Assembly: GCA_964016885.1 (NCBI GenBank)
Contig: OZ024744.1
Location: 46,190,001-46,254,000 of the forward strand
Source of the DNA: Eledone cirrhosa
Lineage: Eukaryota
Direction: 5' to 3'
DNA: 64,000 bases
The notes under the pieces are model-generated. The model did not search any database and was not told the origin of the DNA. It worked only from the letters and a program-made list of their open reading frames with translations. Positions within the stretch are counted from its first letter, which is position 1; each line of letters begins with the position of its first letter. Position numbers and translations under genes: made by a program. This document shows positions 1-59,271 of this stretch, one piece after another.

Positions 1-2205
1 ATAAACTTTTCTGGATGGGAAATGACAATGGGCTGGGTGGAGTAGGAATTATGTTAGCAGAGAAATGGGTAGATAAGGTAATTGCCATAAATAGAGTGAA
101 CGACAGAATAATTAAAATAAGACTTGTTCTAAATAGAACAACTGTGACAATAATATCCGCTTATGCACCCCAGTCTGGTCTACCTGATGTAATAAAAGAC
201 AGGTTCTATGATTTGCTAATTTTTACTTCCTCCCAAATAACAGACAGTGACTGCATAATTATTGCTGGTGACCTAAATTGTCACATTGGACAACATAGTG
301 ATGGCTATGATGGAATCTATGGAGGCTATGTGTTTGGTACTAGAAATGAGGAAGGCTCCAGAATCCTGGAATTTTGTGACGCTAATAACCTAACTATCTG
401 TAACACAAACTTCAAAAAACGAGACAATGACTTGGTCTCCTGTAGATCAGGGGAACATGCCAGCCAGATAGATTATATCCTTACTAGAAGGTGTGACAGT
501 GTCTGTTGTAAACACTAAATCCCTCCCCTTGAAAAATGCACCTCCCAACATAGCCTCGTAGTTAGGGACCTCATAGTCAGGACTAGACGTACTCGACGAC
601 AGAGGAGGACTACCTTGAGGAAAAGATGGAAGTTGAAGGACCTCACAGCCAGTAATAAATTTAAAAGCATATTAGTTAATGCTTTCGACAGTAAAGAGGT
701 GCAATTAAAGACATATAATATAGAGGAACAGTGGCAATTCTTGAAAGTTAAACTGCTGAAGGTGACAGATGGAATCTATTGCTGGAGCAGACCTATAGGT
801 AGGAGGAGGAGAGTAACTTGGAGGTGGAACACTAAGGTGGAGGAGTCAATCAAATCCAGAAAGCAGGCTTGGAAAGTATGGCGGAAGTAGAGAACACTAT
901 CAAGTGGCCAGGAGAGAAGCTAGGAGACAAGTGTACCTTGCACGGAGGGAAGCAGAGGATAGGAAGTTCAAGCATATTCTACAATGTGAGGACCAAAAAC
1001 GTGAGGTGTTCAGGATCGCAAAACAAAGTGTCAAGGAAAATCATGATTTTGTCAGGGAGAAGTGTGTCCGTAAAGATGATGGTGTACTTGCCCTCACTGA
1101 TACTGATAAGAAGGTAGCTTGGAAGTGTCACCTCGAGAGACTACTATGTGAGGAGAATAAATGGGAAAAAGATAGTCTGCCCAAATCGATCCAATAGAAG
1201 GAACAGCGGTGCAAGTTAATGGTAGTATAGTAAATAAGGCAATCAAAGATATGAAGACAGGCAAGGCAGCTGGGGCTTCGGAGATAGTTGTTGAGATATT
1301 GAAAGCATCTGGAATGGTGGGACATACTATGGACACCCAAATAGTAAACCAAATAATACAGAATGGGGTCATATCAGATGACTGGCGTAGCAGCATCATT
1401 GTTAACTGCTACAAGGGTAAAGGAGATACCCTAGATAGGGGAAACTATAGCGCCATTAAGGTAGTTGACCAGGTCATGAAGGTCAAAGAAAGAGTTATTG
1501 CACAACTAATCAGAGACCAAATTGATCTAGATGAAATGCAGTTTGGGTTCGTGCCAGGTAAAAGTACCACAGATGCTATTTTCCTTGTACAGCAACTAGT
1601 GGAGAAGTACCCAGTTAAAAGTAAACCCCTCTACTTAGCTTTTGTTGACTTGGAGAAAGCCTTTGACAGAGTCCCCCGCTCCATTATCTGGTAGGCCCTT
1701 AGAAATGGAGGAATAGATGAATGGCTTGTGAGAGCTATACAAGCCATGTACAAAGAAACAGTCAGCAAGGTTAGAATTAACAATGAATATAGTGAAGAAT
1801 TTAGCGTAAAAGTAGGTGTTCAGCAAGGCCCCATCCTTAGCTTCCTCCTCTTTATTATTGCCCTTCAGGTTATAACAGAGGGGTTTAAGACCAGCTGCCC
1901 ATGTGAACTTCTATATGCAGATGATCTAACTCTCCTAGCCTAATCTATGGCTGAACTAGAGAAGAAATTCCAAAATTGGAGGCATGGCTTTGAATCAAAA
2001 GACGCTAAAGTTAACTTGTCTAAGACTAAAGGTCTAGTATGTAGAAAAGAAAATAGGGCACTGGTGCCATGCTCAGTGTGTAGGAAAGGGGTAGGTAGAA
2101 ATTCCATTCTATGTCCCAAATGCAAACTATGGGTACATAAAAGATGTAGTGAGATCACAGGTAAGCTATCTAAGAATGTAGATTTTATATGTGGCCGATG
2201 CTCTG
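1..2205 (+). mobile_element. Decayed RTE-clade LINE (APE endonuclease + RT), frameshifted, 3' end deleted
   Basis: ORF 15-518 has APE motifs (ISAYAPQ, GDLN, SQIDYIL). ORFs 1209-1694 and 1728-1943 have RT motifs (QFGFVPGKSTTDA, FVDLEKAFD, LLYADDL). Several stops and frameshifts. Confidence 0.93.
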
Positions 2206-2264
2206 GACAACAGACTTTCCCTTGGACAACATGACATATAGTCTATATATACTGGACAGTATTA

Positions 2265-4655
2265 TCATCATCATCATCATCATCGTTTAACGTCCATTTT
2301 CCACGCTAGCATGGGTTTGGACGGGAATTTTCCCACTTGAGGCAAGATTGGTTGTCCTGCTCGTATAGGACTGTCTGGCGGGTTTTCTACGGCTGGATGC
2401 CCTTCATAACACCAACCACGTTTACAGTGTGGACTGGGAGGTTTTTACCGTGTTATCTACACAGCCACATTACAGGGTGGACTGTGTGTTTTTTTTTGTC
2501 GTGACACCTACAGGACCTCATTTGTTTCGGACTGGATGTTGTGGTACCAACATAACTTCACATTGAAGGGGGTGGTGTGGATGCGATGGGGGTATTGGGA
2601 CAGGGGTGTATTTTTGTTAGAGGTGCCTACTGACTGTAGGTTTCTCTTTCTACTTAGGCAAGGCGGGTCTTCTGTATTACTGTGTAGCGCCAAAGATCTC
2701 GGTCCAGTGACATTGTCTTAGAGAGGTGCAACTGTGTGAGGTCGGAATTTATCAAGTCGTCCCAGGTTTTTCTGGGTCTGCCTACTCCGTGGCTACCGTC
2801 TATTTTTATCGCCCGCCCTGCACTTTTTTATACAGCTGTCGTCTTTCATGCGCATCACGTGACCATACCAACGTAGTCTTCTCTCAAGTAAACAACATCT
2901 GATCCCTCTTATTCCTAATTTATCCCTTAGTTCGTTTATGCTTTGCCGTTCACGTATATTACTCTTACACATTCAGCGAAGCATGCAAGCTTCGTTTCTA
3001 TCCAGTCTGCGTATCACACAATGCCCAGGTCTCACTGCCATGTAACATTGCTGTTCGTATGCAGGCATCATACAGCCTGCCTTTCATTTTTAGAGAGAAC
3101 CCTTTAGCGGCCAATAGTGGTATAAGCTTTCTGAACTTTTCCATCCCGTTCTGACTCTAGCTACTGTACTTACAGAGCACCCTCCCCCACTGCTGATTTT
3201 GTCACCCAGGTAATGGAAGGTGTCCACTATTTCTATAGAACCATCTGTGCAATTGAATGAGCTAGTATTCTGTGGGCACTTGCTGCTACTTATTGCTCCA
3301 GAGCACCAGCCACATATAAAATCTATATTCTTAGTTAGCTTACCTGTGATCCCACTACATCTTTTATGCACCCATACTTTGCATTTGGGACATAAAATCG
3401 AGTTTCTGCCTACTCTTTTCCTACACACTGAGCATGGCCATTTCCCAGATGGGACCGGTTCCCTATTTTCCTTCCTACAAACTAGAACTTTAGTCTTAGA
3501 CAAGTTAACTTTAAGGCCTTTTGAATCTAGGCCATGCTTCCATGTTTGGAATTTCTTCTCTAGTTCAGCCATTGATTCAGCTATGAGCGTTAGATCATCT
3601 GCATATAGGAGTTCCCATGGGCAGCCGGTCTTGAACTCCTCTGTTATAGCCTGAAGGGCAATAATAAATAGCTGGGGGCTAAGAACGGATCCCTGTTGAA
3701 CACCAACATTTACTCTAAACTCTTCACTATATTCGATGTTAATTCTAACCTTTCTGACTGTTTCTTTATACATGGCTTGTATAGCTCTCACAAGCCATTC
3801 ATCAACACATAGTTTTCTAAGAGCCCACCAGATAATGGAGCGTGGGACTCTGTCAAAGGCTTTCTACAAGTCAACAAAAGCTAAGTATAGGGGTTTACTT
3901 TTAGCTAGGTACTTCTCCTGTAGTTGTCGTACAATGAAAAGAGCCTCTGGAGTACTTTTACCTGACACAAACCCGAACTGCATTTTATCTAGATCAATTC
4001 GCTCTCTGATTAATTGCGCTATTACTTTTTCTGTGACCTTCATGACCTGGTCGATTAATTTAATGCCTCTATAGTTACCCCTGTCTAGGGCATCTCCTTT
4101 AGCCTTGTAGCAGTTAATGATGATGCTGCTACGCCAGTCCTTCGGTACGACCCCATTCTATATGACATGGTTTACTATCCGGGTGACCATAGTGTCTCCC
4201 ACCGTTCCAGATGCTTTCAACTATTTCCGAAGGCCCAGCCGCCTAACCCGTCTTCATATCTTATTATACTTATTATACTACATTCAACTAGCAATGCTGG
4301 TCCCTCTTTTGGATCGATGTGGGGAGACTGTCTTTCTCCCAATTATTCTCCTCATTTAGTAGCCTTTCGTAGTGACACTTCCAAGCTACCTTCTTATCAG
4401 CGTCAGTGATAGCAAGCACACCATCATCATTAAGGACACACTTCTCCCCGACAATATCACAGTTTTCCTTGACACATTGCCTAGCAATCCTGAACACCTC
4501 ACGTTTTTGGTCCTCGCGTTGTAGAACATGCTTGAACTTTCTTTCCTCTGCTTCCCTTCTTGCGAAGTGCACTTGTCTCCTAGCTTCCCTCCTGGCCACT
4601 TGATAGTCTTCTCTACTTCCCCCATCCCGCCATACTTTCTAAGCCTGCTTTTTGA
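2265..4655 (-). mobile_element. 5'-truncated RTE LINE with 3' UTR and (GAT)n tail
   Basis: ORF 3090-3791 (QQGSVLSP, LLYADDL, FHYLG) and ORF 4288-4599. A (CAT)n tract at about 2265-2284 marks the minus-strand tail. Confidence 0.93.
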
Positions 4656-9081: not shown

Positions 9082-9149
<68 letters not shown>

Positions 9150-9155
<6 letters not shown>

Positions 9156-9742
9156 TGTATATATAGTGTATTTTGCAATACACTGTATGCTTAATTAAAA
9201 GCATTTCTAAGACCGTATGCTATTTTTTAGAGTAGTGACAGTCTCACTTACTTTAAATTTTCAGCAAACAGGGGAGATAAAGCTGACAGAGCTATGTTTC
9301 GTACTGATTGGTACTTATCAAACCCAAGTACTCCACCTGTTTGCTGAAAATCATGAATGTTTGATTCTTATAGAAATTCTAGTAATAATCAGTTCCTGAT
9401 TATTACTAGAATTTCTATAAGAATCAAACACTTATGATTTTCAGCAAACAGATGAATGTTTGATTCTTATAGAAATTCTAGTATAATCAGTTCCTGATTA
9501 TAACTAGAATTTCTATAAGAATCAAATATTCATGATCTTCAGCAAACAGATGGAGTACTTGGTTTTGATAAGTACCAATCAGTACGAAACATAACTCTGT
9601 CAGCTTTATCTCCCCTGTTTGCTGAAAACTTAAAGTAAGTGAGACTATCACTACTCTAAAAAATAGCATAAGGTCTTCGAAATGCTTTTAATTAAGCATA
9701 CATTGTATTACAACATACACTATATATACATTCATATATATA
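9150..9742. repeat. Fold-back element with a duplicated central hairpin and HHR-variant motifs on both arms
   Basis: About 9155-9355 is the reverse complement of about 9530-9740 (twin ORFs 9217+ and 9669-). The centre holds two copies of a ~75-bp hairpin. Confidence 0.88.
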
Positions 9743-9764
9743 TCGCTATTTCAGAGCGCCATTC

Positions 9765-15628: not shown

Positions 15629-15782
15629 TAAAATACATGGAACTCTTTTAACCACCTTTTGATCTTATATTATTTATGCTCCAGTCCTATAAATTGTTGA
15701 GTGCTAATTATCCGATATTTGCATTGCTTTATTGTGTTACAATAAAACTCACCTCCTACATATATATATATATATATATATA

Positions 15783-16149
15783 TACGATATTAAATAAATG
15801 GAAACTATATTTATAAAACCATATTTATTTCATTATATATATTTCAGGGATATCATATTAACAATATGTTATGCCTTCTTCAGACAAAATACAATATAGA
15901 CAGTTTTATAGATAAATAGATTTGACATACCGTTCAACATCGACTTGTATTTGAAAAAGTTGATTTGGCAGTCTTTTTCAAATACAAGTCGATGTTGAAC
16001 GGTATGTCAAATCTATTTATCTATAAAACTGTCTATATTGTATTTTGTCTGAAGAAGGCATAACATATTGTTAATATGATATCCCTGAAATATATATAAT
16101 GAAATAAATATGGTTTTATAAATATAGTTTCCATTTATTTAATATCGTA
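15783..16149. mobile_element. Perfect fold-back element (177-bp arms, 13-nt loop) with a hammerhead-like motif on each strand
   Basis: 15783-15959 is the reverse complement of 15973-16149. CTGAAGA-AGG...CCT-GAAA-TATA-TA lies at 16049-16096 (+) and about 15836-15883 (-). Confidence 0.85.
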
Positions 16150-16235
16150 AATATACTCCAAATACTTGTTGAGTGCTTTTATATCAGTTATAAATATTTA
16201 CTAGTTGTAACCCAACAATTTAAATATAACTTTCC

Positions 16236-22895: not shown

Positions 22896-22926
<31 letters not shown>

Positions 22927-22957
22927 AAAGAATAGAGGTGTTACACACGAGTTATGA

Positions 22958-23758
22958 TATATTGGTAAAAGGAAAAGAAAATGCTGACAAATTGCTTCCA
23001 GTGAAAAATAGTTTAATTAGGAATAAGTAAAAATTAGTAATAGTATTGGTTAGTATTCAGTTTTGGTTTTAAGTTTTACCGGTTGCGCATTTCTAATGCT
23101 TTTCAAAAATAATTTTGAGATAGAGCGCCCGTGATGTTTGCTCTAATCTCATTTTAGAGATTAGAGCAAACATCACGGGCGCTATATCTCAAAATTATTT
23201 TTGAAAAGCATTAGAAATGCGCAACCGGTAAAACTTAAAACCAAAACTGAATACTAATCTAATCTAAGGCGGGTAAAATTCCCGAGATCCATGGACGAGT
23301 TCTCTCCAGCGGTCTCTGTCCCTCATTATCGCTGCCATGTCCTGCGTCTCCAACAGACCAGTGTCTGTCCTTAGGGCATCAACATACGTTAACCTTGGTC
23401 TTCCTCTTCTAGTGTGTCCATGTAAGGGCTCCCAAAGGAGCACTGAGTGCAATGTCGGTGGGCATGTCCAGCTAACGTCAGTGTTCTCTGTGTCACTTTT
23501 GAGCTGCCTTTTGGGATGCTCCCATACAGCTCTGATTTTTCCATCCTCAGTGTATAGTGATTAATGTTCAGAGCCATCCACAGCATTCTCGTGTAGCACC
23601 CATCCACCATCTGAGTGAGTTTCTTGGTCAGTGTCCAAGTCTCAGACCCATACAGCAGCACAGACTCCACTACAGCAATACTATTACTAATTTTTACTTA
23701 TTCCTAATTAAACTATTTTTCAATGGGAACAATTTGTCAGCATTTTCTTTTCCTTTTA

Positions 23759-23765
<7 letters not shown>
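22958..23765. mobile_element. Fold-back PLE pLTR element (~190-bp arms, 6-nt loop); right arm split by a LINE fragment
   Basis: About 22958-23150 pairs with 23157-23256 plus 23676-23765. The arm matches 54768-54970, downstream of the GIY-YIG ORF. Confidence 0.85.
23257..23674 (-). mobile_element. 3' fragment of an RTE-like LINE (different family)
   Basis: ESVLLYGSETWTLT and RRGRPRLTYVD. (TAGAT)n tail at about 23254-23267. Confidence 0.85.
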
Positions 23766-23821
<56 letters not shown>

Positions 23822-24440: not shown

Positions 24441-26578
24441 CGCTGATAAGAAGGTAGCTTGGAAGTGTCATTACGAAAGGCTACTAAATGAGGAGAATAA
24501 ATGGGAGAAAGACAGTCTCCCCACATCAATCCAATGGAGGGACCAGCAGTGTTAGTTGAAGGTAGTATAATAAGTAAGAGAATCAAAGAAATGAAGACGG
24601 GTAAGGCGGCTGGGCCTTCAGAAATAGTTGCTGAAATGCTGAAAGCATCTGGAACGGTGGGAGACACTATGGTCACCTGGATAGTAAACCAAGTCATACA
24701 GAATGGGGCCGTTGCGAAGGACTGGCGTAGCAGCATCATCATTAACTGCTACAAGGGTAAAGAAGATGCCCTAGATAGGGGTAACTATAGAGGCATTACA
24801 TTAATCGAACAGGTCATGAAGGTCACAGAAAAAGTAATAGCGCAACTAATCAGAGAACGAATTGATCTGGATGAAATGCAGTTCGGGTTTGTGTCAGGTA
24901 AAAGTACCACAGACGCTCTTTTCATTGTACGACAACTACAGGAGAAGTACCTAGCTAAAAGTAAACCCCTCTACTTAGCATTTGTTGACTTGGAGAAAGC
25001 CTTTGACAGAGTCCCCCACTCAATTATCTGGTGGGTTCTTAGAAAACTAGGTGTTGATGAATGGCTTGTGAGAGCTATACAAGCCATGTATAAAGAAACA
25101 GTGAGCAAGGTTAGAATTAACAACGAATATAGTGAAGAGTTTAGAGTAAAAGTTGGTGTTCATCAGGCCTTCGTTCTTAGCCCCCTACTATTTATTATTG
25201 CCCTTCAGGCTATAACAGGGGAGTTCAAGACCGGCTGCCCATGGGAACTTCTATATGCAGATGATCTAACGCTCATAGCTGAATCAATGGCTGAACTATA
25301 GAATAAATTCCAAACATGGAAGCATGGCCTAGATTCAAAAGGCCTTAAAGTTAACTTGTCTAAGACTAAAGTTCTAGTTTGTAGGAAGGAAAATAGGGCA
25401 CCGGTCCCATCTGGCAAATGGCCATGCTCAGTGTGTAGGAAAAGAGTAGGTAGAAACTCCATTTTATGTCCCAAATGCAAAGTATGGGTGCATAAAAAAT
25501 GTAGTGGGATCACAGGTATCTAACTAAGAACATAGATTTTATATGTGGCCGGTGCTCTGGTGCAATAAGTAGCAGCAAGTGCCCACAGAATACTAGCTCA
25601 TTCCATTGCACAGATGGTTCTATAAAAATAGTGGACACCTTCCGCTACCTGGGTGACAAAATCAGCAGTGGTGGAGGGTGCTCTGAAAGTACAGTAGCTA
25701 AAGTCAGAACTGGATGGAAAAAGTTCAGAAAGCTTATACCACTATTAGCCGCTAAAGGGTTCTCTCTAAAAATGAAAGGCAGGCTGTATGATACCTGCAT
25801 ACGAACAGCAATGTTACATGGCAGTGAGACCTGGGCATTGTGTGCAGAGGATATACGCAGACTGGAGAGGAACGAAGCTTGCATGCTCCGCTGGATGTGA
25901 ACGGCAAAGCATAAACGAACTAAAGAAACAATTAGAAATAAGGGGGATCAGATGTTGTTTACTCGAGAGAAGACTACGTTAGTATGGTCACGTGATGCGC
26001 ATGGAAGACGACAGCTGTATAAAAAAGTGCAGGGCAATAAAAATAGATGGCAGCCACAGAGTAGGCAGACCCAGAAAAACCTGGGACGACTTGATCAATT
26101 CCGACCTCACACACTTACACCTCTCCAAGACAATGTCACTGGACTGAGATCTTTGGCGCTACACAGTAATACAGAAGACCCGCCTTACCTAAGTACAAAG
26201 TGAAACCTACTACAGTCAGTAGGCACCTCTAACAAAATGCACCCCCGTCCCACTACCCCCACCCCATACACACCACCCTTTCAATGTAAAGTTATGTTGG
26301 TACCACAACATCCAGTCCGAAACAAATGAGGTCGTGTAGGTGTCACGATAAAACAACACACAGTCCACGCTGTAATGTGGCCGTGTAGGTAACACGGTAA
26401 AAACCTCCCAGTCCACACTGTAAACGTGGTTGGTGTTAGGAAGGGCATCCAGCCGTAGAAAACCCGCCAGACAGTCCTATGCGAGCAAGACAACCACTCT
26501 TGCCTCAAGTGGGAAAACTCCCGTCCAAACCCATGCAAGCGTGGAAGATGGACGTTAAACGATGATGATGATGATGAT
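24439..26578 (+). mobile_element. 5'-truncated RTE LINE (RT, PHD-like finger, 3' UTR, (GAT)n tail)
   Basis: ORF 24501-25301 (NYRGITL, FVDLEKAFD, LLYADDL) and 25631-25900 (FRYLG, LHGSETW). Tail GATGATGAT at 26561-26578. Confidence 0.93.
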
Positions 26579-34689: not shown

Positions 34690-38228
<3,539 letters not shown>

Positions 38229-39086
38229 AGTAATTCTTGAAGAACTCTCAAAACTCGAGATATGTGAATGTACGAGTAACTTTGGGTAAGAAATTGTCTT
38301 CTATGTACTTATATATGATCGGGTGTGTATCGATGTATATGCAAGCAGTCCTAACAAACCCGGATTGTTTATCACGGAGTATAGAAAAGTACACAAAATC
38401 TGCTGTGTTAACAATACATATAATACGTACTTTATATTTCAAGTCCAAGTGTAAAGTCAAGAAAGACCAGGAAAGCTAATTGTTTAGATGTTGGTGATTT
38501 AAACCTATAGCAGGTATGTGGTGTTGACAATGTTTCCCCGCTCTTAAATAAAACCGGTGTCATACGTTAAAAGTCCCTGACATAATTTAATACCTTCAGC
38601 CAGACCTTCAGTTATATCAATTCACTCTATCAATTGTATCCAACCCAAGGTAAAAACAACAATGTCACCCAGTAAAATATTATAATAACATATCAACGAG
38701 GCATTGTCTTACCTTTCTACTTAACCTGTTAGAAATAGCAGCCAAATTACACTCTACTGTCTTAAAACAAAGGAGTTAAACATTCGGCAGTTTAGTCGTG
38801 TATAATTTCCTTAGGGCCTTGTGGTGTGTGGCTGATTGTCACATTCGGTGGTGAATTGTTGGTTGTTTTTGTTGGTAATTTCCTTTCCTCCCGCTTTCAC
38901 CATATATTTAACTGGCTATATATATTTTTTGTGATTTACATGTGTGAGGTTCCTAGCAATAATTAATTGTATTTATATCTGTTTATATTTTTATTTTCTA
39001 AGAACTATAAAAACAATTTGTAATGTTATTTATACAGTTGAATTATTGTATTTATATAGAATATCATACAGATCTACACATATATA

Positions 39087-50000: not shown

Positions 50001-50756
50001 ACGAAAATAACGGGAGAGGGACAGACTTTATATTTCAGTCTGAGCTGTGATTCAGCCCCACCCTACCGACAAAATGGCAAAGGTGTTACAACAGAGAATA
50101 GCCAGAGACCCCAACTGCAACATTCTTCCTCAAGTGGGCTGCTGTGTTTCTAATTTTGAGAAGGAAATCAGCAGTGTGGGGACAAAGAGGAATTGGTGAG
50201 TCAGGCCCCGGTATTTAACTATCTCCCTCTTCTCTCTATTGCAGATAGTAAAGACCGGGTTTGTGGCCGCAGGGAAAATGTTGGAGGCAGGGAATGATCC
50301 AACCCATGCTAAACCTCCAACTAATTCTGCTACTTGTCTTTTTCAGCTGTGGAGATTAGAGACATGTGGAATGATGTGTGTTGCTTAAGGACACAATGTA
50401 CCTCCCTAACTGACAATTGAAAACATGATATTACCATATGTTGTATGACTTCACTATACAATATATATGTGTTTGTATACCTATGTATAACTATATATTT
50501 GTGTATACATTGTCTCATTCCATGAGAGTAACTTGGTCAGCCTATGAACTCCTCATCCGACCCTTCTATATGTATATACATGTCTGTGAGTGTGTGTGTA
50601 CATATGTATATATAATATTGTCACAACTACTATATACACCACATATACACTATATATAATATTGTCCAATATATATAGACTATATGTCATGTTGTCCCAG
50701 GGAAAGGCTGATATAGATCAGCACGCGTGACATTACAACTATTATATACACAACAT

Positions 50757-52768
50757 ATCATCATCATCATTATCATTTAACATCTATCGTCCACGCTAGC
50801 ATGGGTTAGACAGAAATTCTCCCACTTGAGGCAGGATTGATCGGGTGACCGTGTCTCGCTCGTATAGGACTGTATCTGGCAGGTTTTCTATGGCTGGATG
50901 CCCTTCCTAACACCAACCACATTTCCAGTGTGGACTGGGAGTCTTTTCGTGATGACACCTACACGACCTCTTTAGTTTGGACTGGATGTTGTGGTACCAA
51001 TATAAAGTTACAGAGAGAGGTTGGTGTTGGTGGGAGTGGGAGGATGGAGTAGGGATTGTGTGTTGAGTGTATATTTGGTTGGGGGGGGGGGGGGGGCTAC
51101 TGACTGTAGGTTAACTTTGCACGTAGGGAAGGCAGTTCTTCTCTGTTACTGTGTGGCACCATAGATCTTGATCCAGTGACATTGTCTTAGAGAAGTGTAA
51201 GTGTGCAAGGTTGGATTTTATGTCGTCCCAGATTTTTCTGGGTCTAGCTACTCCGTAACTTCCATCAATTTTGATCTCCCTGCACTTTTTTATAAAGCTG
51301 TCATCTTTCATGTGCATCACATGACTATACCAACATAATCTTCTCTCAAGTAAACAGCATCTGATCCCTCTTATTCCTAATTTCTCACTTAGTTCGTTTA
51401 TGTCTTGCCGTTCGTGTATTACACATCCAACAGATCATGCATGCCTCATTCCGTTCCAATCTACGCAGGTCCTCTGCACACAATGCCCATGTCTCATTGC
51501 CATGTAACATTGCTGTTCGTATGCACGCATCATACAATGTGCCTTTCATTTTTAGAAAGAAACTTTTTGTGTCTAGCAGCAGTATTAGCTCTCTGAGCTT
51601 TTTCCATCCCGTTCTAACTCTGGCTACTACACTTTGAGAGCACCCTCCACCACTGCTGATTTTGTCACCCAAGCAATGGAAAGTGTCAACTATTTCTATA
51701 GGACCATCTGGACAGTAGAAGGTGCTAGTATCCTGTGGGTACTTGCTGCTTATTTCCCATGAGAATCGGCCACATATAAAATCTACATTCTTAGATAGCT
51801 TACCTGTGATCACACTACATCTTTTATGTACCTATAGTTTGCATTTGGGACATAGAATGGAATTTCTAACTACTCCTTTCCTACACTCTCAGTGCCCTAT
51901 TTTATTTTCTACATACTAGACATTTAGCCTTAGACAAGTTATCTTTAAGGCCATTTGATTCTAGGCCAGGCTTCCATGTTAGGAATTTCTTCTCTAGTTT
52001 AGCCATACATTCAGCTATGAGAGTTAGATCATCTGTATATAGAAGTTCCCATGGGCAGCCTGTCTTAAATACCTCTGTTATAGCGTGAAGGGCAATAATA
52101 AACAGGAGAAAGCTAAGGAATGGGCCTCACTGAACACCTACTTTTACGCTAAATTCTTCACTATATTCATTGTTAATTCTAACCTTGCTGACTGTTTCTT
52201 TGTACATGGCTTGAATACCTCTCACAAGCCATTCATCTACCCCTACTTTTCTAAGGGCCCACCAGATAATGGAGCGGGGGACTCTGTCAAAGGCTTTCTC
52301 CAAGTCAACGAAAGCTAAGTAGAGGGGGTTTACTTTTAGCTAGGTACTTCTCCTGTAGTTGTCGGACAAGGAAAAAAGCATCTGTGGTACTTTTACCTGA
52401 CACAAACCCAAACTGCATTTCATCTAGATCAATTCAGTCTCTAATTAGCTGTGCTATAACTCTTTCTGTGACCTTCATGACCTGGTCAACTAACTTAATG
52501 CCTCTATAGTTCCCGCCTAGCTAGAGCATTTCCTTTACTCTTGTAGCAGTTAACGATGATGCTGCTACGCCAGTCCTTTCGTATGACCCCATTCTGTATT
52601 ACTTGGTTAACTATACGGGGGACCATAGTATGTCCCACCATTCCAGATGCTTTCAACATCTCAACAACTATCTCCGAAGGCCCAGCTGCCTTGCCTGTCT
52701 TCATATCTTTGATTGCCTTACTTATTATACTACCATTAACTTGCACTGATGGTCCTTCTATTGGAGGG
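50757..52768 (-). mobile_element. 5'-truncated decayed RTE LINE
   Basis: ORFs 52504-52875, 51385-51813 and 51111-51320 match the other RTE copies. (CAT)n tail at 50755-50776. Confidence 0.92.
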
Positions 52769-53111
52769 ACGGAGGTTAAATTCCAGTCTGAGCTGTGCTC
52801 CACCCTACAAAATGGCAAAGGTGATACCACAGAGAATAGCCAGAGACACCCACTGCAACATCCACTCCACCTCATGGAACTCCTTCCTCAAGAGGGCTGC
52901 TGTCTTTCTGTTTTGAGGAGGAAATGAGCAGTGTGGGGACAAAGAGGAAGTGGTTTGTCAGGCCCCGGTATTTAACTATCTTCCTCTTCTCTCTATAGCA
53001 GGTAGTAAAGCCTGGGTTTGAGGCCGCAGTGAAAATGTTGGAGGCAGGGAATGATCCAACCCATGCTAAACCTCCAACTAAAGCTGATACTTGTCTTTTT
53101 CAGCTGTGGAG

Positions 53112-54767
<1,656 letters not shown>

Positions 54768-54772
<5 letters not shown>

Positions 54773-55123
54773 TAAACGGAATAGAAAATGCTGACAAATT
54801 GTTCACAGTTGAAAAATGGTTTAATTAGGAATAAAAGAGTATTAGTGATTGTATGGGTTAGTATTCAGTTGTGGTTTTAAGTTTTTAAGTTTTTACCGGT
54901 TGCGCATTTCTAAATGCTTTTCAAAAATAATTTTGAGGTAGACTGTCCGTGCTGTTTGCTCTGATCTGATTAGTTTTGGGAATTCTACCTGTTTTTATGT
55001 TAAAAAAGTGGCTCCAGCAAAATTCTTGTGGTCAAAACAATTTTGATTGGTGGGTAGAGGTCATGTGAATAAAAACTTGGTTTTGCGCCAAGATTGAGAA
55101 ATGACTCTTTCACAACAAATATG

Positions 55124-55203
<80 letters not shown>

Positions 55204-56510
55204 GCAGAGTAATTCGTGGTGGCAGGGATGGTCAGTAAGAATGTGTCTGAAAGTATTTTAGCATGTCAAAAGATATTTTTCAGCTTTTGTCTTATACGGA
55301 GAAGTGCGTGTGTGTGTGTGTGTGTATATATAAGTCTCTTTGTATGTTGATGTACGCGTGTGTATGTGTGTGTGTGTGGGTGGACCAGTATTTTTTTCCC
55401 CCTGGTAAAATGGTGTACATTATTCGATTTTTTCAGTAAAATCGGTTGTCTTAATAGAACATCAAAAATCTTAACAATAAAAGGTGTGAAATGATATTCA
55501 CTATATATATATACACATACATATATTCACTATATATATATATATACATATATACATATATATATGCACATATATTTTTTTGTGTTGCACCATAGAGCAT
55601 GTGTGTTTCCGTATGTCATTGTGTTTATATGTGGGTAGAGATGTGTGCTGATGTAGGTATGTATGTTGACGTGTGTATGTTGTGGGATCGTCTTAGGGAG
55701 AAGTGTTTAGACGGTGTCCGTATTTGTTAATGAAGTAAGATTCCTTGCTGATGCGCTGGGTGTGGGGGGCATTATCTTTAAATTTGTAGAGGAGAAAGAT
55801 TCTGAAGTTGGGATGATTTTGGACGGCACAGGTATCAATGTGTTCACTCAGTGGTATTTTCCTGTATTCCCGTATTTTGATTTGGGATCTATGGACAGTC
55901 ATGCGTTGGCGGAGGCTGTTTTTGGTCTGGCCTATGTATTGTTCTCGACAACCTGAACAAGTTAATACATATATTAGATTTTCCGATGCACATGTGAAAT
56001 TGTGTTTTACTATAAAACGTTGACCATCTTTGAAATAGAATTCCGAACCCTCTATTAGGTTGATGCAAATGCCACAGTTGGGTCTATCGCATTTTTTTAC
56101 TGTGGGTTTCGTTGTTGTGGTTGGCAGTACTTTGGAATCTGTTAAGATGTTTTTCATTGACTTGGATTGTCTTTTGCTCTTTATGATATCATGTGTTCGT
56201 AGAATTTGGTTCATTCTATGGTCCTTTTTCAATACAGGGATGTTCTGGAGGATGGTGTCAAAGGCCTCATTGTTGAGGGGGTTGTGTGTGGAGATGTATG
56301 GAAGAGCTTTTAGTTTTGGTTGATTTACTTTAGGGTGTCTAAGGTCCTGGGTACTGTGTTTTAGGGCACGTTGGATTCCATTGTCAATTAGTGATGCAGG
56401 GTAGTCCCTGCCTATGAGTGTGTCCTTTAGTTCTTGTAGCCGTAAGTAGCAGATGTTTTTATTGGAGACTATAGTACAGATTCTCTTGGCTAAGTTGTAG
56501 GGAATATTAA
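54768..56510 (-). mobile_element. 5'-truncated Penelope-like retroelement (linker + GIY-YIG endonuclease, 3' UTR, pLTR)
   Basis: ORF to 55693: NIPYNLAKRICTIVS, KCDRPNCGIC, NLIYVLTC..QYIGQT..LRQRMTVH. Open for about 270 codons. The pLTR at 54768-54970 ends in (TA)n. Confidence 0.9.
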
Positions 56511-56714
56511 TTTTAATATATATATATATATATATATCATCATCATCATCGTTCAACGTCTGCTTAAGGACACAATGTACCTGCCTAGCTGAGAATTGAA
56601 CACATAATAGGATGTATGACTTCCCTATATATATATATATGTGTGTTTGTATACACATTTATAAATATGTGTGTGAGTACATATGCATATCTATATATCT
56701 ATCTATATATATAC

Positions 56715-57155: not shown

Positions 57156-57693
57156 CAGTTTACTACTTGTTTCTTTCAAAGTAGAGTTAAAATGGTATTT
57201 ATCAAGAAAACTTCATGAACTTCACTGGCTGGGTTGAGAGAGAGATTGGGTGAAAGAGAGAGAGTAAGAGTCACTGAGACCAAAGGGGGTCTGTGGAAAG
57301 CAATAGTTTACATGTTTACTCTATCAAGAAATGCTCCAAACTGCTTGGCCTGATCTAAGGCAGGCTATTTATCTATATCACGTCCTCTGTCTCTAGGGCT
57401 TGAGAAGAAAGGGCTGAATTTTTGAGGTCGCCCAATCTCAGACCTGTTGATGCCCAAAAGGAGATAACTCAGAAAATGACCGTTAAATGTGACCCAGAGA
57501 TCAACGTGTAGATAGATTTCGCTACACATATGCATATATATATATATAAATATACATGGGTGTGTATGATTGTCTATAGAAGATTATATTAATAAATGGA
57601 ATTCCAACTTTGTCAGTTTTTCTTGTTTTATTTACAATCCTTTAAAATTATTATGAAATAGTATGGTACAATATTAAATGTTAAGTGTTAATT

Positions 57694-57730
57694 GAACAAG
57701 TACTTTCATGCTTTCGCAATCTTCAGGTTC
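57694..57730 (-). ncRNA. Identical minimal hammerhead motif on the opposite strand
   Basis: Exact reverse complement of 57792-57828. Confidence 0.8.
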
Positions 57731-57791
57731 ATATTCTGTGGTGACAGTGAAGTTTGCGAAAATTGCACAACTGAATGTCACCACAGAATAT

Positions 57792-57828
57792 GAACCTGAA
57801 GATTGCGAAAGCATGAAAGTACTTGTTC
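57792..57828 (+). ncRNA. Minimal type-I hammerhead ribozyme motif
   Basis: GAAC-CTGAAGA-tTGC-gaaa-GCAt-GAAA-GTAC-TT-GTTC: stem I GAAC/GTTC, GNRA-capped stem II, palindromic stem III A-GTAC-T. Confidence 0.8.
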
Positions 57829-59271
57829 AATTAACACTTAACATTTAATATTCTTCCATACTATTTCATTATAATATCATTGTAATTTTAAAGGATTGTA
57901 AATGAAACGAGTAAATCAGTCAAAGTTGGAATTCCTTTTATTAATATATATATATATATATATATACATACGTATATATACAATATATATATATATATAG
58001 TACGCAAAAGATGTAATGAGTAGTCTAACAGGAAGGGAGAACTTTGCATGTAGACGAGGCATAGCAGAACTTGAAAGGAAGAGTGCTACTGTTATAAACC
58101 GTTTCCAGTCACAGGAAGGATCTATAGATGTGGTTGATAGCTTCTGCTATCTAGGTGACCTAATCAGCAGCAGAGGAGGGTGTGCCAAGAGTAGAGTGGC
58201 TTGAATAAGGATAGGATGGAAGTTTAGTGAACTACTACTGCTGATAACATAAGCTTTCTACCTACACACAAAAGGAAGGGTATATGAAGCCTGTGTAAAG
58301 TGCACAATACTGCATGGTAGAGAAACATGGGCTGTGACTGCAGATGATACGATTAGATTGGAGAAAAATGAAGCAACTATGTTTTATTGGATCTGCAACG
58401 TATATGTGAGAGAATAACAGAGCTTGGACTAAGTGAGGAAATCCTAGTGGAAGGAAGCTGCAGTAGAAGTTGGCCAAGAAAGCAAATGTTGTGAGAGCTT
58501 AACTCAAATCGTGAAGACTGGAAGAGGAGATGACGAAGGAATGCATCTAATGGAGAGATGTGCTAAGAAGGAGCCGTCCAACCCATGCAAGCATGGAAAC
58601 GTAGATATAATGATGATACACAAAATATACACTATATATATACATATAAATAATATGTATATAGTGTATGTAGCACATATACACAATATATACACTATAT
58701 ATAAATACTGCATATATAGAGTATATGCTACATATACACAATATATACACTACATATATATACTGCATATATAGAGTATATGCTACATATACACAATATA
58801 TAAACTATGTATATATAATACATACACATTATATATAATGTTGTCCAAGGGAATAGCTGAAACAGCTTGGCAAATATGGCAGAAAGCATTCCATCCATTG
58901 TTTTATAGACTTTAAATAACTGTTTCTACTTTTAAGTCAAGACCAGCAATTGGAACGGAAGGGGAAAGTTGATTAAATCAACCCCAGTGGATTACTGGTA
59001 CTTTATTTTACTAAAGCTGTGAAGGAAGAAAAGTAAAGTTAACCTCAGCAGGATTTTAACACAGAAAGAATGTTATCTGATGCTCTACCGATTCTGCCTA
59101 TCCACCATACCCAACAATGAAATGAGATTGTGTCTCTGTAAGAAGCCTTAAAGACAAATAATATGAAGTGGAACTTTCTAAAGGGTGTATTTGTGGATTA
59201 CAATACAAAACCTCTGAGAATGATTTCTAACATATTTCACCATAATTAATTTTTATTAATACATATTATTA

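What the first reader, a model, noticed from the sequence alone, without database searches (positions are those of the whole stretch)
23077..23230. Hammerhead core variant with a compensatory U3-A8 swap and GCAA in place of GAAA
Seen: UUGAAAA-GCAU(uagaa)AUGC-GCAA-CCGG-UA at 23201-23230 (+), 23077-23106 (-), and again at 54894-54924 (-) in the pLTR of the GIY-YIG element. Established: HHR C3 and G8 form a Watson-Crick tertiary pair, and A-CCGG-U is a classic palindromic stem III. Inference: C3U plus G8A is a compensatory change, and its retention at two separate loci suggests a family-level variant rather than decay. The A13C change is unusual and standard CUGANGA/GAAA searches would miss this motif.
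Basis: partly seen in the sequence, partly recalled or inferred. Interest (0 to 1): 0.72.

Follow-up and report, generated by a model that had tools for sequence, protein, structure and literature searches.

The report
Penelope hammerhead with fixed core mutation
The motif is the end-repeat hammerhead of a Penelope-type jumping gene with over 11,000 copies in this genome; its U-A core pair is already published, but this family has also fixed a change at a normally invariant core base, which likely weakens self-cutting without having stopped the element from spreading.

Summary
The motif is at all three places, but two are mirror arms of one head-to-head insertion. It lies in the pseudo-LTR of an autonomous RT + GIY-YIG Penelope-like family ('A'). 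It is family-wide: 3,972 exact GCAA copies against 24 GAAA, and 11,389 with any loop and a non-A base at position 13. U3-A8 is published (Perreault 2011; Cervera 2014, same UUGAAAAA box) and is shared with a sister family ('B', about 14,000 copies, 49% protein identity) that keeps GAAA. A13C is therefore most simply a derived change in A; my searches did not find it in print (Lünse 2017 unreadable). A also has a weaker stem I (3 A-U pairs) and a predicted hairpin that buries U3-A6. Most copies of both families read through the cut site. The core stayed unchanged across A subfamilies (P about 0.03, weak). Best reading: an attenuated hammerhead in a family that amplifies from uncut RNA; cleavage is untested. 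The scan has noted other fixed core variants (U4A in this genome, position 6 elsewhere), not A13C.

The parts
23201..23230 (+). Minimal type I hammerhead-derived core, subfamily A1: U3-U4-G5-A6-A7-A8-A9 (23201-23207), stem II GCAU(U)/(A)AUGC, G12-C13-A14-A15.1 (23221-23224), palindromic CCGG, U16.1-A17; predicted cut after 23230
   Evidence: sequence; cut site inferred from hammerhead numbering
23077..23106 (-). Mirror copy of the same core on the other arm of the palindrome
23198..23233 (+). Stem I: UUU (23198-23200) with AAA (23231-23233), three A-U pairs only
23189..23204 (+). Predicted competing hairpin UCAAAA/UUUUGA that pairs the 5' strand of stem I and U3-A6
   Evidence: pairing probability 0.95 for U3-G5, 0.78 for A6
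23050..23257 (.). Near-perfect palindrome: two pLTR pieces joined head to head at their 5' ends, the usual PLE inverted arrangement
   Evidence: PMC8557442 passages
22916..23153 (-). Left copy: pLTR from the common 5' start point through the tail into (TA)n
   Evidence: 95% to L067
23158..23767 (+). Right copy: pLTR pieces 23158-23257 and 23676-23767, split by an unrelated ~420-bp repeat (23258-23675), ending in (TA)n
54894..54924 (-). Same core in subfamily A2 (extra U in loop 2)
54764..56516 (-). 5'-truncated family A copy: endonuclease end of the ORF, 3' UTR and pLTR
55693..56658 (-). Open frame whose family-derived part holds the CX4CxxC linker and GIY-YIG endonuclease
   Evidence: PF01541, E 9.6e-6

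Best explanation
This is the pseudo-LTR hammerhead motif of an autonomous Penelope-like family, of the published U3-A8 type, that has fixed A13C and likely cuts much more slowly than its GAAA sister, while the family likely amplifies from uncut RNA. Shown: position in both pLTRs of RT + GIY-YIG elements, fixation of C13 across subfamilies, a GAAA sister family, and that most genomic copies run through the cut site. Inferred: transcription starts about 44 nt upstream of the core (TATA-like box about 30 nt before a CAGAT at which many copies begin); the RT starts internally about 110 nt downstream of the cut site and copies back through the intact motif; two motifs would have to pair through A-CCGG-U to cut. 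The stretch is probably still under selection, for slow protein-assisted cleavage or for an overlapping role (promoter element, splice donor, protein binding).
For: Element anatomy. Fixation; no other letter at 2% or more is listed at position 13 in three public runs of one study. Sister family B has U3-A8 + GAAA, stem I CCUU/AAGG and stem II GCAG/CUGC; 48.9% amino-acid identity over 233 aa but 25 of 29 core letters identical, with double-sided changes in stem II pair 4 and stem I pair 3. Attenuation: A13 changes cost 10-100-fold (PMC4075628, passage citing Ruffner). Stem I pairing probability is 0.00 in A against about 0.55 in B1; the active-like fold lies 12.6-15.6 kcal/mol above the minimum in three A copies against 6.7-8.1 in two B copies. 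Dispensability: catalytic HHR mutants did not change insertion by an Anolis PLE in vitro, and unprocessed RNA was the main substrate (PMC11167929, passages). About 90 of the 100 listed A copies reach the core from a downstream anchor (by eye).
Against: No cleavage assay and no RNA data. Monomer folding says little about a dimeric, protein-assisted ribozyme, and subfamily B2 also has stem I probability 0.01. The core and stems have 0 of 15 lineage-level substitutions in 31 of 151 free positions (P=0.026), and the two lineage changes inside the motif fall in or next to loop 2, as expected for a working ribozyme. Readthrough copies dominate in GAAA family B too, so readthrough does not single out A. 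The 10-100-fold figure is second-hand and not specific to C or to a U3-A8 background. The direction of the change rests on one sister family plus the published consensus.
Confidence: 0.5

Rival explanations
1. A13C is a tolerated or tuning variant. The motif still self-cleaves at a biologically useful rate as a dimer with help from the element's protein, and the upstream hairpin acts as an off-state that the protein resolves.
For: Core and stems are unchanged across subfamilies whose majority sequences differ at 5-18 of about 188 sites. Lineage changes inside the motif are confined to loop 2 and its closing pair. A13 is among the milder core positions, and an insertion after A13 occurs in natural cores (PMC3088659 section 8). 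The Anolis PLE hammerhead cuts only when its protein is present. The stem III duplex energy is the same in A and B (-10.3 kcal/mol).
Against: Three weakening changes coincide in A (C13, loss of the C-G pairs of stem I, competing hairpin). All rows of the published PLE alignment keep a GAAA box. No clear excess of copies starting at the cut site.
Confidence: 0.3
2. The ribozyme is dead and neutral. A13C and the weak stem I hitch-hiked in a successful master element, and the apparent conservation is chance or a locally low mutation rate.
For: P is only 0.026, and private differences are also lower in the motif (6/677 against 38/2297), which points to a lower local mutation rate or to ascertainment. 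The invariant block extends about 13 nt upstream of stem I, so it is not specific to the ribozyme. Copies are young (median 1.0-3.2% from subfamily majority). Naiad PLEs thrive without canonical hammerheads (PMC8557442).
Against: 25 of 29 core letters are shared with a family at 49% protein identity, against 55 of 139 just downstream, so lineage A kept the motif through most of that divergence.
Confidence: 0.15
3. The motif is not hammerhead-derived at all; it is a chance look-alike kept only as a promoter or splice signal.
For: CCG|GTAAA inside stem III resembles a splice donor in both families, followed by branch-like and acceptor-like sequence (seen; motif knowledge recalled). Upstream pLTR sequence is also well conserved (33 of 43 and 30 of 45).
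Against: Family B fits the full minimal hammerhead descriptor with no mismatch, with covarying stems, in the position where PLE hammerheads are described.
Confidence: 0.05

Closest known systems
Minimal type I hammerheads of metazoan PLEs, U3-A8 variant of Schistosoma mansoni Cercyon (Cervera and de la Pena 2014, PMC4209133; parts 1-2 of 4 of the text and parts 1-2 of 3 of the supplement read)
   Same: pLTR location, UUGAAAA(A) first box (row S. mansoni(4)), G10.1-C11.1, short stem I, palindromic stem III for dimer formation (CGCG / GGCC rows in Aedes), mirror copies on opposite strands
   Different: GCAA in place of GAAA; no extra nucleotide between A9 and 10.1; shorter stem II; stem I of three A-U pairs; predicted competing hairpin
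Natural hammerhead core variants (Perreault et al. 2011, PMC3088659; section 8 and passages read)
   Same: U3-A8 covariation seen in nature; other natural core changes (A6C, U13a insertion, U15.1-A16.1) give low but detectable activity
   Different: The text names no A13C variant (figures not seen); those variants are rare cases, not fixed in thousands of copies
Poseidon PAc element of Anolis (Frangieh et al. 2024, PMC11167929; passages read)
   Same: PLE whose hammerhead sits upstream of an internal RT start and whose insertions come from uncut RNA
   Different: Canonical C3-G8 core with shown protein-assisted cleavage; a different PLE clade
Neptune / Nematis-type EN+ PLEs (Craig et al. 2021, PMC8557442; passages read)
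   Same: RT then C-terminal GIY-YIG, CX2-5CxxC linker, CCHH, GxKF and DKG motifs, (TA)n targets, tandem and inverted pLTRs
   Different: Clade not placed by a tree here; hammerhead core non-canonical

Membership tests
PLE minimal type I hammerhead | Lies in the pLTRs of a PLE | tested here: met
   Motif on both sides of RT-bearing ORF pieces in L066 and L067; downstream of the GIY-YIG frame in L071 and the window
PLE minimal type I hammerhead | First box CUGANGA or its U3-A8 covariant | tested here: met
   U3 and A8 in 22 of 22 anchor-picked copies
PLE minimal type I hammerhead | Second box GAAA | tested here: not met
   GCAA in 3,972 against GAAA in 24 exact matches; met in sister family B. 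Filed as a variant, not as a canonical member
PLE minimal type I hammerhead | Stem II opening with G10.1-C11.1 | tested here: met
   4-5 bp, pairing probability 0.6-0.98; G-C to U-A change against family B
PLE minimal type I hammerhead | Palindromic stem III allowing dimers, and H17 not G | tested here: met
   A-CCGG-U, duplex -10.3 kcal/mol; A17
PLE minimal type I hammerhead | Stem I closing the junction | tested here: inconclusive
   Three A-U pairs possible, predicted probability 0.00 because of a competing hairpin
PLE minimal type I hammerhead | Extra nucleotide between A9 and 10.1 (usual, not universal) | tested here: not met
   Absent in A and B; also absent in some published rows
PLE minimal type I hammerhead | Self-cleavage as a dimer | not testable with these tools
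   No assay possible; genomic cut-site test inconclusive
EN+ Penelope-like element (Neptune/Nematis type) | RT followed by C-terminal GIY-YIG in one ORF | tested here: met
   PF01541 E 2.4e-6; RVT_1 only E 0.0014, below its cut-off; order seen in broken copies L067, L071
EN+ Penelope-like element (Neptune/Nematis type) | CX2-5CxxC linker, CCHH, GxKF and DKG motifs | tested here: met
   Read by eye in the translations; motif definitions
EN+ Penelope-like element (Neptune/Nematis type) | Tandem or inverted pLTRs and (TA)n targets | tested here: met
EN+ Penelope-like element (Neptune/Nematis type) | Phylogenetic placement in Neptune or Nematis | not tested
   No reference proteins fetched
Hydra clade PLE | DKT and RWK motifs, no CCHH, CxCX5C linker | tested here: not met
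   Family A has DKG, GLKF, CCHH and CX4CxxC

The most novel reading that the evidence does not exclude
A natural, functional hammerhead with C at position 13 in a U3-A8 core, kept by selection in over 11,000 copies and switched by an upstream hairpin that the element's protein opens. It would widen the hammerhead core consensus, and with its GAAA sister family it would form a matched natural pair for asking what PLE hammerheads do.
Probability: 0.3. Interest if true: 0.62.

Novelty: new variant of a known kind. Interest (0 to 1): 0.42.

Why it matters
What hammerheads do for Penelope-like elements is open: they cut poorly, and in one in vitro system they were dispensable for insertion. Two sister families of similar copy number in one genome, one with a complete core and one with fixed A13C, make a cheap and direct test. 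If A cuts, descriptor searches have been missing whole families and position 13 is more tolerant than assumed. If A does not cut, a PLE family reached over 11,000 copies without cleavage, and the conserved stretch serves another role.

Tried and rejected
Cut-site ends as a genomic record of cleavage: inconclusive. Family B: 71 copies start exactly at the predicted cut. Of 240 junctions at -2 to +2, the 100 listed split by eye as 17, 15, 31, 12 and 16, plus 9 point mutants: about a 2-fold excess that TA-flank microhomology can explain. Family A: 18 matches with three A's and 126 in the wider window, many of them small duplications (100 listed); the A-run hides the exact junction. No RNA holder listed; four contig runs of unknown kind from one study, three of them laid, possibly not independent of this assembly; no joint with GT..AG ends was listed. 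A second, canonical hammerhead inside family A elements: none found by the descriptor in L066, L067, L071, L073. Other large GCAA families: none among the first 100 of 19,714 loose matches, apart from one tandem satellite (control 2,443); the remaining rows were not seen. A-B heterodimer rescue: rejected on paper, since B's 5' stem I strand forms only two pairs with A's 3' strand. The 24 GAAA copies as a surviving ancestral subfamily: not favoured; the 8 aligned fall in both A1a and A1b, L037 has GAAA on one arm and GCAA on the other, and 0.6% fits background mutation; a small GAAA lineage is not excluded (L073 has it on both arms). One search missed subfamily A2 and included GAAA-targeted loci; the motif statistics had an indexing bug; (P=0.017) included motif-selected loci, so only one search is used (22 of 30 anchor-picked loci; 8 dropped for not matching both flank anchors at the central copy). 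Literature: 'hammerhead ribozyme' + 'A13C' gave 0 papers; searches showed no A13C natural variant in their listings. PMC11014351, PMC9901934 and PMC6155905 (passages) gave nothing on A13; of bioRxiv 10.64898/2026.07.22.740005 only part 1 of 5 was read. Lünse et al. 2017, Ruffner et al. 1990 and Scott et al. 2013 were not read, so prior report of A13C is not excluded; figures and the supplements of Perreault 2011 and Craig 2021 were not seen.

Full report
Observation. The sequence is as described at all three places. The sites at 23077-23106 and 23201-23230 are the arms of one palindrome, 23050-23257. It is a head-to-head pair of pLTR pieces: the left runs 23153 to 22916, the right runs 23158-23257 and 23676-23767 around a later insertion, and both end in (TA)n. 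The 54.9-kb site is a different subfamily (A2) at the end of a 5'-truncated copy that holds the GIY-YIG frame. In the window alone the motif is barely above chance (3 descriptor hits against 0-2 in shuffles). Rfam lists no hammerhead among 108 matches.

The element. Longer copies (L066, L067, L071) show the motif in both end repeats around broken pieces of an RT ORF with a C-terminal GIY-YIG. The translations show GLKF, DKG, a CX4CxxC linker and CCHH, which fits the Neptune/Nematis type and not Hydra as defined in PMC8557442; no tree was built. Many copies begin at a CAGAT about 44 nt upstream of the core, about 30 nt after a TATA-like box, and end about 110 nt after the predicted cut site in (TA)n. 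I infer a transcription start and an internal RT start from this; neither was tested.

Family-level variant. The exact GCAA 30-mer occurs 3,972 times, the GAAA version 24 times, and the reversed controls 0 times. With any loop, 11,389 matches have a non-A base at position 13; of the 100 listed, 99 have C and 1 has G. Copies picked by a downstream anchor, blind to the core, have C13 in 21 of 22 and U3 and A8 in 22 of 22. Three contig runs from one study list no other letter at 2% or more at that position.

Sister family. The same first box with GAAA gives 14,038 matches, nearly all of the 100 listed from another family, B. B fits the minimal hammerhead descriptor with no mismatch: stem I CCUU/AAGG, stem II GCAG/CUGC, A-CCGG-U. 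A and B share 48.9% amino-acid identity over 233 aa and about 64% ORF DNA identity. They share 25 of 29 core letters, against 30 of 45 just upstream and 55 of 139 downstream. Stem II pair 4 (G-C against U-A) and stem I pair 3 (C-G against U-A) differ on both sides. So the motif is hammerhead-derived, U3-A8 is shared by both families, and A13C most simply arose in lineage A.

What is in print. U3-A8 covariation in nature is in Perreault 2011 (section 8). It is also in PLE pLTRs in Cervera and de la Pena 2014, with about 1,300 hits in S. mansoni and a UUGAAAAA row. Their alignment keeps a GAAA box throughout. A search for A13C found 0 papers and six further searches showed no such natural variant, but Lünse 2017 could not be read.

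Does it cut? Against: A13 changes cost 10-100-fold (second-hand). Stem I in A is three A-U pairs. A predicted hairpin pairs U3-G5 with probability 0.95-0.98 in three A copies and 0.03-0.13 in two B copies. About 90 of 100 listed A copies read through the cut site, and an Anolis PLE inserts equally well with a dead hammerhead in vitro. For: none of 15 lineage-level substitutions falls in the 31 structured positions (P=0.026), and the two lineage changes inside the motif are in or next to loop 2. The Anolis hammerhead needs its protein to cut, so monomer folding may mislead. That P value is weakened by a lower private mutation rate in the motif and by an invariant block that extends upstream. 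Readthrough copies also dominate in B. Counting copies that start at the cut site was inconclusive in both families. No RNA run was listed.

Verdict. A real, family-wide variant of a known kind. Half of the claimed novelty (U3-A8) is published. The other half (fixed A13C beside a GAAA sister family) I did not find in print, and it is cheap to test. I put 0.5 on an attenuated ribozyme in a family that spreads from uncut RNA, 0.3 on a working variant, 0.15 on a dead neutral relic and 0.05 on a non-hammerhead origin. Earlier notes of this scan report other fixed core changes in PLE hammerheads; I did not check them, but they make this case one of a series and not a lone oddity. Interest 0.42.

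Noticed in passing
window 23225-23232 (+); L067 1313-1415; L042: CCG|GTAAA inside stem III resembles a 5' splice site in both families, with TACTAAC and a pyrimidine tract ending in CAG (A) or TAG (B) about 100 nt downstream. PLE 5' UTR introns are known; splicing here would remove the cut site. No spliced joint was listed in the contigs laid.
   Followed up: partly
It did not pass my descriptor.
   Followed up: no
G000:C1, five mirror pairs in the listing (e.g. 21363531 and 21363642): A2 mirror pairs recur at the same 111-base spacing, so the inversion point is likely fixed near the putative transcription start.
   Followed up: no
L125, L117, L008: Family B subfamilies have also lost stem I pairs (CUACUU and CUACGU in place of CACCUU), so stem I is eroding in the GAAA lineage too.
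   Followed up: partly
window 35700-38300: Array of C2H2 zinc-finger repeats with 84-bp period; the frame 36706-37614 (-) matches zf-H2C2_2 at E 1e-70.
   Followed up: partly
window 24501-25301 (+), 1100-4400, 50750-52900: Several fragments of a LINE-type reverse transcriptase family (RVT_1, E 8e-25 for 24501-25301).
   Followed up: no
window 15777-16155, 9143-9743, 57534-57998: Other long near-perfect inverted repeats, possibly head-to-head insertions of other elements.
   Followed up: no
L067 about 1030-1060: A CUGAUGA...GAAA string about 250 nt upstream of the 5' motif, outside the family A boundary, probably a remnant of another element.
   Followed up: no
G000:C1:5363673-5371112: A 37-bp tandem satellite that matches the loose core pattern with GCAA; no stem II was evident.
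   Followed up: no
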